Below, piece after piece: positions 1 to 5,684 of a DNA stretch of 5,684 bases; positions within the stretch are counted from its first letter, which is position 1; every line of letters starts with the position of its first letter. The position numbers are program-made. The DNA is from a virus (lineage: Duplodnaviria > Heunggongvirae > Uroviricota > Caudoviricetes), in the IMG/VR virus record IMGVR_UViG_2695420699_000012. One strand, 5' to 3'.

Positions 1-3000
1 TATCTACGGCAGCAAGCCAGTAATGGGTTAAGTGATAACAGGTGTCTGGAAATATAGGGGCAAATCCAGCAACATTATGTCATCAAAGAACAGAACCCGC
101 AGAACAACAACCCGCAACATCCGATTTCCAAACCAGATAATTGAACAAATTAACATCGCTCTTGACCTGAAAGGTTCAGGTAATTTTTCAGCGTGGGTTA
201 TTGAAGCCTGCAGAAGAAGATTAATTAATGAAAAATATTCTCAATTTGTACCCAACAAAGACAAACACGACCAGAGCACCTGTTCAGACAGGTTTACTTA
301 AACGACTTATATATGACACAAAAAGCGACCACTAAAGTCGCTTTTTCTTATGGTAACAGGCAATAACTCTCTCAGATATTTTTTAGCATTTTTTTGACCG
401 CGCGTTTCCGGACGTATTCTGTTCTCCTGTCCCTTTATATCGTCGGAATACCCGCCGCTCTTCAAATCCCATTCCCAACTCAGAATGTAGTCTGTTGACC
501 GCTTGTTTTATTTCGGTCAGGTTCACCGGTGAAACCGGAGTCCGGCGCGCCTTACGCAAACACTCTGCTCGTTTCTGTGCCGCCACTTTTCTTTTCTGGT
601 CATCACTTAGCTGTACCATCACTTTTGCCCATCGTTCAGCTGCTCTCCGGTACAGTCCTTTTTTCTCCAGACATTCTGCCACGTGATCATGTAGCATAAG
701 TGACCTCCGATTATCTACAGACTGCCATCCTGAATTTACCTTCCCTTAATGAAATAACAATAAAAAACAAACCACGCAAAAACAATAAAACAACACACAA
801 AAAAAACTAAATAATAAACAAAAATAATCACCTTATTTTATTATTTTTTGAGGGAGCAATTACTGAACAAAAAACGCTGACTATATACTCAAAACCAAAC
901 AACTATTCTGCCAATCAGGTATCATGGCAACACACGGAATTACCGTGTTTTTGCCTTCTCTGCCCATACAATACGGGCATATACTTCATTCTCTATTGTA
1001 ATATTTCTATCCATGTGCCCCACTCCATTTACCTGTAAATAATATTCAAAATATTTATCACAGAAATCGTTTTTGGCCATGAACTGAGCACACTATAAAG
1101 TCCGGAACTGACTCTTTGTTAAATTACCTTAACGTTACCAGTAACACCTTCATAACAAAACATCACGGTATACACTGGGTACGGATATATTCCTGTGCTC
1201 CTTCCAGTTGCTTCTGCATTGCCATCAGCCGTTCTCTGAGGATGAAATAATCCCGTTCAGCGGTGTCTGCCAGTCGGGGGCCGGTTGCATTATCCACGCC
1301 GGAGGTGCCGGTGGCTTCACGCACGGTACCGGAGCAGGTGGCGTTGATCCGCAGGCGCTTACGACCAGCGGCAACATCAGCACGCAGAGTTTCATTTTCA
1401 GCTCTCGCATCGGCTAATTCCCTCGAGTATCTGGCATCAAGTGCAGCGACATCACGCTGGCGTATCTGCATATCAGTAATTGTCGCGTTCGCCAGCTCCA
1501 GCTCACTGGCTTTTTTATCGCGCTGCTCTTTGTAGATGATGGCGTGATCACGGTAATGATTCAGCCCCAGACTAAGCGCACCACAGGCCACCAGCAGGAC
1601 AATGATAACCACGCACAGAACACGGTTCATATCACCACCAACGGATTGCCCAGACCAGAACAGCAATGGCCACAATACGAATGGCAAAAGCTGCCGCTCT
1701 TGTTAAATCCAGACTGGCTGGCGTCTCCACTTCAATGCCTTTCATAATGGACAACCTCAGAAAGAATCTTTTATACTTCCTCATAGGGAAAGTACCTCCC
1801 TACCCATAATTTCTCCCTTGCCTTACTCAAGGTCAGAAAACACAAAACCCCGCTTGCTGCCAACAAACGGGGTTTTTACTTTTATTCACTTAGGTTTTAC
1901 CAGTTTTCAGGATTTCGTGTTATCCACCCGCGTTGGCCAACGTCATTTTTCAGGAAAATATTCTGCTATCTGTCGATGTCCCAGCACGCCAGCGCGCTCT
2001 CCTGGTCACGCCGTGAGACCTGACCGTAGCAATTATTTGAACGGATACGGCAGTCTCTGCCACCGTCCTTAATCCACCAGCGAATCGCCTCACAGGCACC
2101 TTTTCGATCGCCTGCATTAATTCGTTTATAAAACGTCGACGGGAAGCACTTACCGGGGCCAATGTTGTACGGACAGAATGACGCGATCCCCGCTTTCTGG
2201 GGTTCGGTCAGCGGCACCCGGATGTTTTTCTCCACCCATGCCAGAGCCTTGTCACGTTCGATGGCATTAACCCGGTCGCATTTTTCCTTTGACAGCTTCA
2301 TGCCAGGAATAACAGGCTTACCATCCACCAGAATGGCACCACGGCAGATGGTCCAGATCCCCGCACCATCACGGTATGCCGTGGTGTGGTTACCTTCCTT
2401 TTCATCCAGAAACTGGTCGAGGATTTCAGGCGCAGAAGCACCTGCACCAATCAGCGCCAGAACGGCAGCCGACAGGCCGTATTTTATTTTTTCGTTCATG
2501 GGGATTTATCGATTTCTAATCCCTTGATATGTTAGGTATATAATCCAACACTCATGGTCGCTCTCATAAACATATCCCTTGAGACGCAGCAGATTACAAC
2601 AAATGAAGCCATATAAATGAACAGTAAAGAAAGTTTGCGCAGAAGATTTTTACAACTAATGACAGAAAACGTTAAATCAGAGTTACTTCTTCTGATGGCA
2701 GATAATAACGAAGCAACAAGCAGCATTCTTGCAGACCCTTACGGTAAGATCTCACATAAAACGCTGGATATTATTACCACAACATTAACACCGCTGATGC
2801 TTCAACGGCTGAAACATAATATCAACGCATGGGTTAATGAAGAATTAAGTCCTCCCTGCTTATGGGATTCTCGTTACGCATGTCAGCAAAAAATGCGAAT
2901 TTTCAACTTACTATCACCAAAGCTCAGGTAGCCATAAAATCCTGCCCTTCATGGCATACAGGATTTCAATGGAATCACAATGACCAACTCTTGCACAGCT

Positions 3001-5684
3001 GTATCCCTGACTCCCCGACAACTCAGATTTTCAGTATCTGCTGCTATCTAAAGAGAAAGCGCACAAATGCAAGGGTCTTTCATCACGTCCTGTTATTGAT
3101 TGCCTGTGACCTTTTCTTACCTCATGGAACGTTTTTTCAGTTAGAAATATTCATTTTACAACCAGTTCGTATTGTTTATTCATCGACTACTCTCCCCGCG
3201 CCACCTTACGCTTATCTTCTTTAATCTTGAAATAAAGGTTAGTCAGATACGTCAGCAGGCCAAACAGCAGACTCCCCAGCACACCGATTGCCACCCACTG
3301 GGACGGAGAGACTTTGTCCAGCAGCTGCAGTAACCAGTATCCCGTCCCCACCGCTGACGTGGTGTATGACACACCCGTTGTGATTTTTTCCATCTGATGT
3401 ATGTCTCCGTCACCGCCGACAGAAAATGAAAGTAAAGAAAAACAAAAAAACCGCCAGTGTCACCCACTGACGGCCAACTCCGGGAGCCGTGATTATGGCA
3501 TTCAGGCTCTGCTAAAAATGCCAGATAACATTCCGGCCTCCCCTGATTCAGGTTATAAATGACACAATATCTTGACAACACCCGTCACTGTCTGTCAGAA
3601 AATATACCGCCAGGCATAAGTATCATGTGAAATCCAACTATCCTTCTGAGCCAGCACCTCTCCACCGAAAGTCAGTGCTGGCTGTTTTTTTCCTTAATAA
3701 AGCATCTGTAACTGAAACAATCCGCATATTGATAATATATTGACAGGCATCATTGCTGTCTGTGAAAAATAAGTCTCTACAAACATATAAGGCCTTTTAG
3801 CCAGCGTCTTCTTTCAGGTCAGTCGCTGGCTCTTTTTTTATTATGCTGCCGGTGCATTTATCTCCAGCACCAGACTTTCTATCTCAACGCCATACGCTGC
3901 ATTTTTTGTAACATCCGTCAGCGTCAGCGCATTCAGTCCCAGTGTCAGACCGTCTTTTATAACCTGGAATGCCGGGCCAGCCACTCCATTCAGTTTCGGA
4001 GTAACCGTGGCACTGCCGGCGGTGAACACCAGCTCCAGCGTCTGCCAGTCGTTACCGTAATCGCCGAACTCCCCCAGCTTCGTGTTTCCGGCTTTCCTGT
4101 GATGCATCAGATTCACTCTGCCGTCAGTGGTCTGAGTGAAGTACGACATCAGGAACGGATTACCGGTACCCGTCATCGCCACACCATCAGGAACGGGAGC
4201 ATCCGTATACAGATAAATCCCCAGCCCGAACTGATTGTTGGTCAGTGCGCCTGACAGGCGGAACTTACAGGTCAGTCTGCCGCCCTGTGTCAGCAGGGTA
4301 ATTGCGTCATCCACCGGATGCGTCAGGGACCAGGTTTTATTGCTCTGCTTGGTGATCTTAAATACACCATCTGACAACTGAATTCCGCCATCCTTAATGC
4401 TCCAGCCCTGCGCAGCAGCCTCTCCGGCTGCCGGCAGCAGGGAGATTGTGCGAACGGACGTATCTGCAGACGGACCCGATGGCGTGTTGCCGCCGGGCGA
4501 GGGTTTGATTTCCGGTGCCTTACCACTGATGAAGGCTGAGGTGCGCCCGGCTGCGTTCAGAATAGCGGTTGCCAGACGATCCGGAATAATGCTCCTGCGC
4601 GCCCATGAACTGAAATGTGTCGGGCGGTTTGATGATACCTGGTTTCCATTCGTTCTCGATGCCGCACCGTAATATCCTGATGCCGGAATATCCGGATCTT
4701 CTGCCGGCGCGTTAGTGGCGGTATTGACGCCGTTACCGTCTGTCATGAAGGGCACAAAATAAACGCCCTCACTCTCCCTGTTTTTATACCCGCCGTACAC
4801 GGTGTCGTACTGGGTAGCGTATGTATTTTTCCAGTAATACGTCGTGTCACCACAAATCCACGGCACATCTGCAGCACTGCCACCATGGCACTGCGCGTTA
4901 AACACGGAGAGGTCAGCACGAAACTGTGTCAGCATGGCTGTAAACAGCGCAGGTTGCTGTGCGTGGGTGGCGGCGCTCATGTCAAACTCTCCCTGCATCC
5001 AGCACACCGCCAGCAACACATTTTTCGGGTTCTTCTGTAATGCAGCTTTAGTGCGCGCAATCAGGTCCTGATATAACGGTTTACCCACACCCCAGCGTGC
5101 CGAATCCTGGCTGGCCCCCGTGTCCGCACTGAATGTCCCCTCCGCGCCCTGGGTGAATGCCGAACCACCACGACAGCATGGTACCAGCAGGATCCCCGCG
5201 TTATTCGGGATATACGGAAGCAGTTTTTTGGCAATATGTAAGCCCTGGCCGACACAGCCGTACTGCCCTTTGCTCAGGTCTGCCTTCGGATGATTCAGCG
5301 TACTCATATCCTGCACATCATGCAGGCAGTGGTCGGCCGGAATAATATCGTTATATCTGCAGGCAGCCCCACCCGGCGTAACTGTACTGCGGCGCGCCAG
5401 CTGTTTAATGCGCGGATCCGGAGCATCGTATGAATCCGGCAGCGGAAGCCCTTCACCGTAAGCCATGGCATTGGACTGCCCGGCCAGTACGATGACGTAG
5501 TACCAATCCGGCTCAGTTGCACCACTGACCACCACATCACCTTCTGCTGTAATCGCCTGCATCAGGGTATAAGGGGTTATGGCCACCGGACTACCAAACG
5601 GCTGCCAGCCCTCTTTCAGTTTGTGTGTCAGCTTTTCCGCAAGGTCTGACGGCGACGCCGCCCTGACAACATCATAATGTTTAA

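What the first reader, a model, noticed from the sequence alone, without database searches (positions are those of the whole stretch)
2500..3186. Opposite-strand AT-rich moron splits the pinholin / SAR-endolysin pair
In phage 21 and lambda, S and R are adjacent and translationally linked. Here about 690 bp separate them, and the insert carries a 104-codon ORF (2617-2931) on the opposite strand with its own TATAAT (2539-2544) and a perfect 8-bp 3' hairpin (2937-2966). The insert is visibly more AT-rich than the flanking lysis genes, which points to horizontal acquisition. Its mRNA would be fully complementary to the late transcript between S and R, so it could act as a protein (lysis-timing factor, anti-defence or fitness factor) and/or as an antisense regulator of R. 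The pinholin also lacks a dual-start antiholin form, leaving room for a separate timing regulator.
Basis: partly seen in the sequence, partly recalled or inferred. Interest (0 to 1): 0.72.

Follow-up and report, generated by a model that had tools for sequence, protein, structure and literature searches.

The report
Orphan opposite-strand gene in prophage lysis cassette
Between the holin and endolysin genes of this E. coli lambdoid prophage lie a real, selection-maintained 104-codon gene of unknown function on the opposite strand and the wreck of a neighbouring YdfR-family late gene; it is an uncharacterised accessory gene of a familiar kind, not a new kind of system.

Summary
The 687-bp S-R spacer is composite, not one acquired unit.

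- **The ORF is a genuine gene.** ORF 2617-2931 (+) has dN/dS of 0.10-0.32. It is the only stop-free frame, and an SD-like run precedes its ATG in all clades. AlphaFold2 gives a confident five-helix model (pLDDT 87).
- **It belongs to a tiny uncharacterised family.** It matches phrog_1853 and is annotated "hypothetical" in RefSeq. It has no Pfam, NCBIfam, PADLOC, PDB or BFVD relative, and it is not DUF1327.
- **The rest of the spacer is a decayed gene.** Region 2932-3186 is the wreck of a minus-strand YdfR-family late gene. It keeps 10 codons of a DUF1327-type start and a stop-ridden fragment of a conserved C-terminal domain (CTD).
- **In rarer intact relatives the two genes are paired.** In Stx2 phage 86 orf5/orf6 and others, the small gene lies tail-to-tail with the CTD gene.
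- **The orphan form dominates.** It is in about 11.6% of complete E. coli genomes, and the small gene still evolves 2.5-3 times slower than its flanks.
- **S-R inserts are normal here.** 47 of 53 sampled loci with this holin type carry one.
- **Transcription signals are weak.** There is a lone TATAAT and a hairpin without a U tract.

Function is inferred, not shown. Most likely it is a lysogen-expressed moron protein, possibly an antagonist of CTD proteins. Interest is modest.

The parts
2617..2931 (+). 104-codon gene for a soluble five-helix protein of unknown function (phrog_1853; RefSeq WP_000138558.1 is its 90-aa form; the 104-aa sequence is named 'unknown protein encoded within prophage CP-933O' in EDL933)
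   Evidence: ORF. phrog_1853 E=3.5e-47. dN/dS 0.10-0.32. Only stop-free frame with the lowest dN/dS. AF2 pLDDT 87.4, pTM 0.78. 51 of 53 fetched copies intact. Names.
2605..2608 (+). Weak Shine-Dalgarno-like GAAG, 8 nt before ATG 2617. It reads GAGG or GAGGA in other clades.
   Evidence: Alignment of upstream regions from 12 loci. There is no comparable purine run before the PGAP start at 2659. Phage 86-type homologues have Ile, not Met, at residue 15.
2539..2544 (+). Candidate -10 hexamer TATAAT for the small gene; no convincing -35
   Evidence: Sequence. Single occurrence, 2.6 expected by chance. Not called by the promoter scan. Conserved in the window, L005 and L059 clades, TACAAT in L008, absent in the L002/L003/L068 clades.
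2937..2966 (.). Perfect 8-bp inverted repeat with a 14-nt loop; a weak hairpin, not a canonical intrinsic terminator
   Evidence: dG -12.8, z -2.1, no U tract. Not called by the terminator scan. 2965 T>A in three variants without a compensating change. Homology to intact loci ends at 2938.
2932..3186 (-). Decayed remnant of a YdfR-family late gene (the 'partner'), unannotated in RefSeq
   Evidence: Evolves at 0.059-0.078 differences per site against 0.022-0.035 in the ORF. No annotated feature. The component matches are listed in the next two parts.
3151..3183 (-). Ten-codon stub MNKQYELVVK plus stop. It is the start of a DUF1327/YdfR-type gene, 3 nt after the S stop codon as in Qin essQ-ydfR.
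   Evidence: tblastn to phage 86 orf5, 9/12 identical. 92% DNA identity over 38 bp to the start of the L064 385-aa gene. K-12 YdfR begins MTQDYELVVKG. Sequence.
2979..3104 (-). Stop-ridden fragment of the conserved C-terminal domain of the partner gene
   Evidence: tblastn to the Stx2_12E129 213-aa protein E=3e-4, with two in-frame stops. Profile HMM of 14 partner proteins, domain i-E=0.0054, profile positions 130-171. The match is weak, but strand, order and position are right.
3187..3393 (-). S21-type class II holin (pinholin), single-start allele
   Evidence: Pfam PF04971 E=1.9e-32. PGAP 'class II holin family protein'.
1966..2499 (-). SAR-type phage lysozyme R, divergent (head to head) with the small gene; 117 bp between the start codons
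   Evidence: Pfam PF00959 E=7.6e-24. PGAP rrrQ lysozyme.

Best explanation
**Shown.** The S-R spacer is a degenerate two-gene accessory cassette.
- Its intact half, 2617-2931(+), encodes a soluble, about 12-kDa, five-helix cytoplasmic protein. It belongs to a very small family found only in lysis regions of enterobacterial lambdoid (pro)phages.
- Its other half, 2932-3186(-), is the wreck of a YdfR-family late gene. In intact relatives that gene carries a conserved C-terminal domain (CTD) of about 105 aa behind variable N-terminal modules (DUF1327 or a coiled coil). It lies tail-to-tail with the small gene, the 3' ends 9-21 bp apart or overlapping by 21-33 bp.
- The small gene remains under purifying selection after loss of its neighbour.

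**Inferred.**
- It behaves as a moron. It is transcribed against the Q-dependent late operon from its own weak sigma-70 promoter, so it would be made mainly in the lysogen and shut down by head-on late transcription after induction.
- It works as a protein, not as an antisense RNA.
- Its most likely partner is the CTD of YdfR-family late proteins. The cis copy is lost here, but trans copies exist in co-resident or superinfecting lambdoid phages. That would make it an antagonist or 'immunity'-like factor.

The anatomy is well supported (about 0.9). The functional part is a low-confidence inference (about 0.25).
For: **It is a gene**
- dN/dS is 0.10-0.32 across 50-98% identity.
- In the six-frame control only the + frame is stop-free and has the lowest dN/dS.
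- 9 of 14 polymorphisms fall at codon position 3, and variable-site density is 0.044 in the ORF against 0.098-0.145 in the flanks.
- The AF2 model has pLDDT 87.4 and pTM 0.78.
- The start and SD-like run are conserved.

**It is soluble**
- The maximum Kyte-Doolittle 19-residue window is 1.23 or less, and pI varies from 5.6 to 9.3.

**Pairing with the CTD gene**
- Stx2 phage 86 orf5/orf6 and Stx2_12E129.
- L004-L011.
- L068 at 50% identity.
- L072, at 34% identity to the window ORF and about 37-41% to the phage 86-type proteins, in a different cassette upstream of HNH and a lambda-type holin.

**Remnant of the partner in the window**.

**Orphan form and continued constraint**
- The remnant is present in 627 of 5426 genomes.
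- 629 of 675 records holding the small gene are at least 95% identical to the window.
- 51 of 53 fetched copies are intact.
- The ORF diverges 2.5-3 times more slowly than the adjacent remnant and upstream spacer.

**Trans partners exist**
- CTD-coding DNA is in 787 of 5426 genomes.
- Strain RM6067W carries both an orphan small gene and a CTD gene in another prophage.

**Moron traits**: low GC and variable presence.
Against: - There are no expression data of any kind.
- The promoter is a lone -10 hexamer no more frequent than chance, and it is absent from the phage 86, Stx2_12E129 and L068 clades.
- There is no canonical terminator.
- The association is one-sided. CTD genes usually lack the small gene (12 of 14; Stx2_95; RM6067W). 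The small gene mostly lacks an intact CTD gene. Neither strictly needs the other.
- Physical linkage by common descent could explain the pairing.
- No interaction could be tested. The partner model was poor (pLDDT 49) and no complex prediction was available.
- No fold or family gives a functional hint.
- The remnant's CTD match is weak (E about 0.003-0.005).
Confidence: 0.5

Rival explanations
1. An independent lysogenic-conversion, defence or fitness factor. The small protein acts on a host or foreign-phage target unrelated to the YdfR-family neighbour. Its constant position next to that gene would only reflect one ancestral insertion carried along by block recombination.
For: - It persists and stays under purifying selection without an intact neighbour in about 11.6% of E. 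coli genomes.
- CTD genes mostly occur without it.
- It has moron-like composition and opposite orientation, like bor next to the DLP12 lysis genes.
Against: - The pair stays together down to about 35-40% identity and in a different lysis cassette.
- There is no PADLOC match.
- No fold or family clue points to any target.
Confidence: 0.25
2. A lysis-timing accessory protein that acts on the pinholin or the SAR endolysin, compensating for the missing dual-start antiholin.
For: - It is located inside the lysis cassette.
- This S allele lacks the upstream Met present in relatives.
Against: - It lies on the strand opposite the late transcript, so it would be repressed, not induced, when lysis genes are expressed.
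- It is soluble with no TM segment, so membrane contact with S is not expected.
- Homologues occur next to S alleles that keep MYQM or MKSM dual starts (L060, L064, L008) and next to a lambda-type holin. There is no correlation with single-start holins.
Confidence: 0.1
3. The functional product is RNA. A + strand transcript acts as an antisense regulator or transcriptional-interference element against the late S-R transcript, and the ORF is incidental.
For: - Any + strand transcript is complementary to the late mRNA spacer.
- Convergent genes with overlapping 3' ends in intact cassettes would give overlapping transcripts.
Against: - The substitution pattern is that of a protein: third-position bias, dN/dS 0.1-0.3, frame-specific.
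- The non-coding 5' part (2500-2616) is the least conserved segment.
- A transcript starting near 2551 does not cover R or its initiation region.
- There is no Rfam match.
- An RNA role in addition to the protein cannot be excluded.
Confidence: 0.07
4. A non-functional leftover. The ORF is intact only because the orphan form spread recently, and it has no current role.
For: - 622 of 675 records are at least 99% identical to the window ORF, which indicates recent spread.
- In O157:H7 PV15-279 it sits in a defective prophage whose R gene is cut by an IS element.
- No sequenced phage isolate carries this form.
Against: - Within the orphan form the ORF diverges 2.5-3 times more slowly than the adjacent remnant, which shares its history.
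- dN/dS is 0.10-0.14, though on few substitutions (Sd 5-7, Nd 2-4).
- 51 of 53 copies are intact, while the neighbour has decayed beyond DNA-level recognition.
Confidence: 0.08

Closest known systems
Stx2-converting phage 86 orf6 (BAF34038.1) with its neighbour orf5 (BAF34037.1), and the equivalent pair in Stx2a phage Stx2_12E129
   Same: - It is a homologue: 53% amino-acid identity and 104 codons.
- It has the same position between S and R, on the strand opposite the late genes, head-to-head with R.
   Different: - There the neighbouring late-strand gene is intact: 268 aa with DUF1327 plus CTD, or 213 aa with a coiled coil plus CTD. The spacer is 1.1-1.27 kb.
- In the window that neighbour is reduced to 255 bp of wreckage.
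- Both phage genes are also uncharacterised.
YdfR / DUF1327 (PF07041) of the K-12 Qin prophage
   Same: - It occupies the same S-R junction (essQ-ydfR-rrrQ).
- The window keeps a 10-codon stub of such a gene directly after S.
- DUF1327 forms the N-terminal module of some partner proteins.
   Different: - YdfR is on the late strand and tightly packed with S and R.
- The window's ORF is on the other strand, has no DUF1327 match and has a different predicted all-helical fold.
- YdfR was reported to bind the RNase E catalytic half and possibly RNA (PMC13232886). Nothing comparable is known for the small protein.
Lambda-type morons next to the lysis cassette, e.g. bor (borD in DLP12)
   Same: - It is an extra gene embedded in the late region on the opposite strand, present in some relatives only (for borD; for variable presence).
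- Its composition differs from its neighbours.
- Expression in the lysogen is established for bor (general knowledge) and only inferred here.
   Different: - bor encodes a lipoprotein downstream of Rz. This gene encodes a soluble helical protein between S and R.
- There is no sequence similarity.
- The promoter and terminator are not demonstrated here.
Opposite-strand immunity genes of pore-forming colicin operons (recalled from the colicin literature, not tested here)
   Same: Architectural analogy only. A constitutively transcribed small gene on the opposite strand sits between an induced effector gene and a lysis gene, convergent with the effector.
   Different: - Colicin immunity proteins of that class are integral membrane proteins, and there is no homology.
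- Here the 'effector' status of the CTD gene is pure conjecture.
- CTD genes usually lack the small gene.

Membership tests
DUF1327 / YdfR (PF07041) | Significant match of the protein to the Pfam DUF1327 profile | tested here: not met
   The 104-aa ORF gives no Pfam family at E<=1. As a positive control, phage 86 orf5 matches DUF1327 at E=3.7e-45.
DUF1327 / YdfR (PF07041) | Gene on the late strand, packed between S and R | tested here: not met
   The ORF is on the opposite strand. K-12 ydfR is on the late strand and overlaps rrrQ by 4 bp. Only the 10-codon stub at 3151-3183(-) is YdfR-like.
phrog_1853 (PHROGs v4, unknown function) | Significant match to the family profile | tested here: met
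   E=3.5e-47, residues 1-102 on profile positions 57-158 of 159. The N-terminal 56 profile positions are unmatched and unexplained.
Phage moron (extra, autonomously expressed gene in a late operon) | Present in some but absent from closely related phages at the same site | tested here: met
   Of 53 loci with the closest S alleles, 5 carry the small gene and 48 do not. Phage Stx2_95 has the partner but not the small gene.
Phage moron (extra, autonomously expressed gene in a late operon) | Nucleotide composition distinct from neighbouring genes | tested here: met
   GC is 0.355-0.43 in the insert against 0.51-0.55 in S and R.
Phage moron (extra, autonomously expressed gene in a late operon) | Own promoter and terminator flanking the gene | tested here: inconclusive
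   There is a perfect TATAAT at 2539-2544 but no -35. The scan does not call it, and it is no more frequent than chance. It is conserved in only some clades. The 3' hairpin lacks a U tract.
Phage moron (extra, autonomously expressed gene in a late operon) | Expressed from the repressed prophage | not testable with these tools
   No transcriptome or TSS data were accessible. Literature searches found no mention of the gene.
Toxin-antitoxin or effector-immunity pair (small gene with the CTD gene) | Obligate co-occurrence of the two genes | tested here: not met
   CTD genes lack the small gene in 12 of 14 sampled loci, in Stx2_95 and in RM6067W. The small gene lacks an intact CTD gene in 629 of 675 E. 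coli records.
Toxin-antitoxin or effector-immunity pair (small gene with the CTD gene) | Physical interaction, or neutralisation of a toxic partner | not testable with these tools
   No complex prediction was available. The partner monomer model was poor (pLDDT 49).
Known anti-phage defence systems (PADLOC-DB v2) | Match to any defence-protein model | tested here: not met
   There were no matches for the small protein or for four of the five partner variants tested. The fifth gave only insignificant matches, E>=0.011.
Rho-independent terminator (for the hairpin 2937-2966) | GC-rich stem followed by a U tract | tested here: not met
   The stem AAAUCCUG/CAGGAUUU has only 3 GC pairs in 8, the loop is 14 nt, and CAAUGG follows it. 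The scan does not call it.
Known RNA families (Rfam 15) | Covariance-model match in the insert | tested here: not met
   A whole-window E-value search gave only a chance-level rimP hit at 1811-1886, outside the insert.

The most novel reading that the evidence does not exclude
The small helical protein and the conserved C-terminal domain of YdfR-family late proteins may form an antagonist pair, which would make the S-R junction of lambdoid phages a site of inter-phage conflict. Phages would deploy CTD proteins late in infection. Prophages would keep an opposite-strand, lysogen-expressed inhibitor. Orphan inhibitors, like the one in this window and in about 11.6% of E. coli genomes including O157:H7, would persist because they neutralise CTD proteins of co-resident or incoming phages.
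Probability: 0.15. Interest if true: 0.7.

Novelty: new member of a known kind. Interest (0 to 1): 0.35.

Why it matters
- **Prevalence.** The gene sits in the lysis cassette of prophages found in roughly one in eight complete E. coli genomes. These include O157:H7, O55:H7, O103, O111 and O145 strains.
- **Selection.** It is under clear purifying selection.
- **Unknown function.** It has no recognisable family, fold or function.
- **The S-R junction is variable.** For S21-type holins it is usually occupied, by a modular YdfR-family gene and sometimes by this convergent small gene. This corrects the textbook picture of tightly coupled S and R.
- **A defined test pair.** Phage 86 orf5/orf6 is a tractable pair for asking what these accessory genes do to lysis, late mRNA or phage-phage competition.
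- **Annotation.** The evidence argues for the 104-codon start (2617) over the 90-codon RefSeq start. It also identifies 2932-3186 as an unannotated pseudogene remnant.

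Tried and rejected
**Searches that gave no functional lead**
- Pfam, NCBIfam and PADLOC scans of the small protein and five partner variants gave nothing useful, apart from DUF1327 on the N-terminus of phage 86 orf5.
- Rfam found nothing in the insert.
- Foldseek against BFVD gave nothing at E<=0.001.
- Profile searches of PDB sequences with both families found nothing below E=0.2.
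- afdb50 was unavailable.
- The AF2 model of the partner was too poor to search (pLDDT 49).

**Homology and distribution**
- An exhaustive HMM search of 1.84 billion representatives found only 21 relatives.
- Two scans of GTDB species representatives found none.

**Literature**
- Searches on DUF1327/ydfR, the WP accession, Stx-phage lysis cassettes and the AgvB/AsxR/Pas sRNAs never mention this gene.

**Readings rejected**
- ORFs 2862-3224(+) and 2532-2726(-) are not genes. They have no family and no support.
- The hairpin is not a terminator.
- The ORF is not DUF1327.
- The pair is not an obligate toxin-antitoxin pair.
- A membrane or DNA-binding protein is unsupported. There is no TM segment, and pI ranges from 5.6 to 9.3 across the family.

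Full report
**Setting.** The window is the late region of an E. coli lambdoid prophage, with all late genes on the minus strand.
- The genes are a nanS-p-like SASA esterase (3841-5586), an S21-type class II holin (3187-3393), a SAR-type lysozyme R (1966-2499), Rz/Rz1 (about 1163-1630 and 1225-1410) and a PerC-family gene. A YlcI/YnfO gene lies on the plus strand.
- The segment 2400-3300 is 100% identical to many complete E. coli genomes.

**Observation.**
- The S-R spacer is 2500-3186, 687 bp.
- The ORF 2617-2931(+) has 104 codons.
- TATAAT is at 2539-2544. It is the only one in the window, but 2.6 are expected by chance and no -35 accompanies it.
- The 8-bp inverted repeat 2937-2944/2959-2966 exists. 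Its dG is -12.8 kcal/mol with z = -2.1, and no U tract follows.
- GC falls to 0.355-0.43 in the insert, against 0.51-0.55 in S and R.
- The S allele has ATA CAT CAG ATG where relatives have ATG TAT CAG ATG, so the dual start is indeed missing here.

**Is the ORF a gene?** Yes.
- Homologues at 98, 80, 78, 65, 53 and 50% amino-acid identity all keep a 104-106-codon frame (L059 reads through its stop to 125 codons). dN/dS is 0.10-0.32.
- In a six-frame control only the + frame is free of stops and has the lowest dN/dS (0.17-0.27). Other frames give 0.8-2.7. The exception is the antisense frame that shares wobble positions, at 0.28-0.36 with 4-6 stops.
- Among 27 distinct alleles of the same 690-bp architecture, 9 of 14 ORF polymorphisms are at codon position 3. 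Variable-site density is 0.044 in the ORF, 0.145 upstream and 0.098 downstream.
- AlphaFold2 on a 7-sequence alignment gives a confident five-helix model (pLDDT 87.4, pTM 0.78).
- The first 14 residues are conserved. Phage 86-type homologues have Ile at residue 15. A purine run (GAAG here, GAGG or GAGGA elsewhere) lies 8-12 nt before ATG 2617 in every clade. The 104-codon start is therefore better supported than PGAP's 90-codon start at 2659.
- One contig has a frameshift after codon 4 that would leave only the 90-aa form.

**What family?**
- There is no match in Pfam, NCBIfam or PADLOC.
- It matches phrog_1853, function unknown, at E=3.5e-47.
- RefSeq calls it a hypothetical protein (WP_000138558.1). 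The EDL933 annotation calls it an "unknown protein encoded within prophage CP-933O".
- The family is tiny: 16 clusters in 5.8 billion proteins, and 21 representatives in an exhaustive HMM search of 1.84 billion.
- The protein is soluble with no TM segment, and its pI ranges from 5.6 to 9.3 across the family.
- The explicit DUF1327 test is negative for the ORF.

**What is the rest of the insert?** It is a decayed late-strand gene.
- Three bases after the S stop codon, the minus strand reads ATG AAT AAA CAA TAC GAA CTG GTT GTA AAA TGA (3183-3151), that is MNKQYELVVK followed by a stop.
- This is the start of a YdfR/DUF1327-type gene. K-12 YdfR begins MTQDYELVVKG and phage 86 orf5 begins MKKKYELVVKG. 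The stub is 92% identical over 38 bp to the start of a 385-aa gene in L064.
- Further on, 3104-2979(-) retains a stop-ridden match to the conserved C-terminal domain (CTD) of that gene family. tblastn gives E=3e-4, and a profile HMM gives a domain E of 0.005 on profile positions 130-171. The match is weak, but strand, order and position are right.
- The remnant evolves at 0.059-0.078 differences per site, against 0.022-0.035 for the ORF in the same allele pairs. It carries no RefSeq annotation.
- Homology to intact loci ends at 2938, so the hairpin lies in junction DNA. In three variants 2965 T>A breaks one of its pairs with no compensating change.

**The intact cassette.**
- The order S(-) / partner(-) / small gene(+) / R(-) is found in Stx2 phage 86 (orf5, orf6), in Stx2_12E129 and in several prophage contigs.
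- The partner is 158-385 aa. Its N-terminus is variable (DUF1327, or a coiled coil starting MNHEEMNQRFSRLENEIAELNKKL). Its C-terminal module of about 105 aa is conserved (..RIGRCMGYLQVAAEIEALASGAD..PPFKK..PGLTYLKGRI).
- The two genes are convergent, with 3' ends 9-21 bp apart or overlapping by 21 bp.
- The pair persists at about 35-40% identity in a different lysis cassette. There it lies upstream of an HNH gene and a lambda-type holin, with a 33-bp overlap.
- The partner has no Pfam, NCBIfam or PADLOC match beyond DUF1327. Its AF2 model was poor (pLDDT 49).

**How common is each form?**
- I sampled 53 IMG/VR loci carrying the closest S alleles and a downstream R.

| S-R junction content | Loci |
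|---|---|
| S and R adjacent | 6 |
| DUF1327-type gene only | 30 |
| CTD gene without the small gene | 12 |
| CTD gene plus small gene | 2 |
| Window-type orphan small gene | 3 |

- An occupied S-R junction is therefore the rule for this holin type. K-12 shows both simple states: essD-rrrD overlapping in DLP12, and essQ-ydfR-rrrQ in Qin.
- In 5426 complete E. coli genomes the remnant, and hence the orphan form, occurs in 627 genomes, almost always at 99% identity or more.
- Small-gene DNA occurs in 674 genomes. Of the 675 records, 629 are at least 95% identical to the window.
- CTD-coding DNA occurs in 787 genomes, often unannotated or frameshifted.
- Strain RM6067W holds an orphan small gene in one prophage and a CTD gene without a small gene in another.
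- Among 50,697 phage records, only four contain a small-gene homologue, all at about 53% identity. Five contain the CTD, and Stx2_95 has the CTD gene but no small gene.
- In O157:H7 PV15-279 the orphan form lies in a defective prophage whose R gene is cut by an IS3-family element.
- 51 of 53 fetched copies of the window-type ORF are intact.

**Mechanism.**
- Shown: this is a protein-coding gene under purifying selection, on the strand opposite the late operon. It lies head-to-head with R (117 bp between start codons) and tail-to-tail with a YdfR-family gene or its wreck.
- Inferred, expression: it runs against Q-antiterminated late transcription and has low GC, so it probably behaves like a moron. 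It would be transcribed from its own weak promoter in the lysogen and silenced by head-on late transcription after induction.
- Inferred, partner: its only constant associate is the CTD gene. The most economical functional guess is therefore a protein-protein partner or antagonist of the CTD.
- Limits: the association is one-sided, so an obligate toxin-antitoxin or immunity pair is excluded.
- The orphan's continued constraint suggests either an independent role or action in trans on CTD proteins from other lambdoid phages in the same cell.
- An RNA-only role is unlikely, given the codon-specific substitution pattern and the poorly conserved 5' leader.
- A direct antisense effect on R is unlikely, because a transcript starting near 2551 does not overlap R or its initiation region.

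**Context from the literature.**
- YdfR of Qin was recently reported to bind the catalytic half of RNase E and possibly RNA (PMC13232886). This concerns the N-terminal module of some partner proteins, not the small protein.
- Surveys of Stx-phage lysis cassettes do not mention either gene (PMC8136144).

**Verdict.**
The ORF is a real opposite-strand moron-like gene, not DUF1327, at a variable junction.
- It misses three points. A third of the insert is a dead late-strand gene. S-R inserts are the norm here. The proposed promoter, terminator and antisense roles are weak.
- The gene is an annotated hypothetical of unknown function, so it is a new member of a known kind. Interest is modest. Its main value is the defined, testable orf5/orf6-type cassette.

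Noticed in passing
window 3560-3840 (+ strand): Two tandem small transcription-unit-like elements lie opposite the late genes, between the sialic-acid esterase and the holin. Each has a TTGACA box (3572-3577 and 3740-3745). A strong GC hairpin with a T run follows on the + strand (about 3650-3688 and 3810-3840). This is exactly where the prophage sRNAs PasA/PasC are described (esterase-PasA-holin-lysozyme; bioRxiv 10.64898/2026.05.13.724894). Rfam gave no match, and identity with the Pas sRNAs was not verified by sequence.
   Followed up: partly
window 3391-3402 (- strand), 5' end of holin S: This S allele reads ATA CAT CAG ATG where relatives read ATG TAT CAG ATG (MYQMEK...). Two substitutions have removed the upstream Met of the dual-start motif.
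   Followed up: partly
window 1632-1965 (- strand), between R and Rz: The R-Rz junction is also split. It holds a strong late-strand terminator-like hairpin (1876-1844, 15 pairs plus a T-rich tail). It also holds a hydrophobic ORF of 37-50 aa (1632-1784) that PGAP annotates as hypothetical (WP_000675931.1). The weak Rfam rimP hit at 1811-1886 (+ strand) overlaps the same palindromic hairpin.
   Followed up: no
L002 about 3880-3915, and the equivalent positions in L003 and L068 (+ strand): In the phage 86, Stx2_12E129 and L068 clades the TATAAT upstream of the small gene is replaced by a GC hairpin plus a T run on the + strand (CGCCAG..CTGGCG TTTTT). It lies between the R start and the small gene, and what it terminates is unknown.
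   Followed up: no
S-R junction of related loci (L002, L003, L005, L008, L064, L068, L072, L075, L156): The late-strand gene between S and R is highly modular. It combines DUF1327, a coiled coil or longer N-terminal parts with a conserved, uncharacterised C-terminal domain of about 105 aa that has no Pfam model. Coding DNA for that domain is in 787 of 5426 E. coli genomes, and it is often unannotated or frameshifted.
   Followed up: partly
L068 4600-5237: The most divergent locus carries a HicA/HicB-like pair on the strand of the small gene, just beyond the partner and a DUF1327-like ORF. This reading rests on inspecting the translations only.
   Followed up: no
phrog_1853 profile against window 2617-2931: The PHROG profile is 159 positions long, but the protein matches only positions 57-158. 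No family member found here has a matching N-terminal extension.
   Followed up: no
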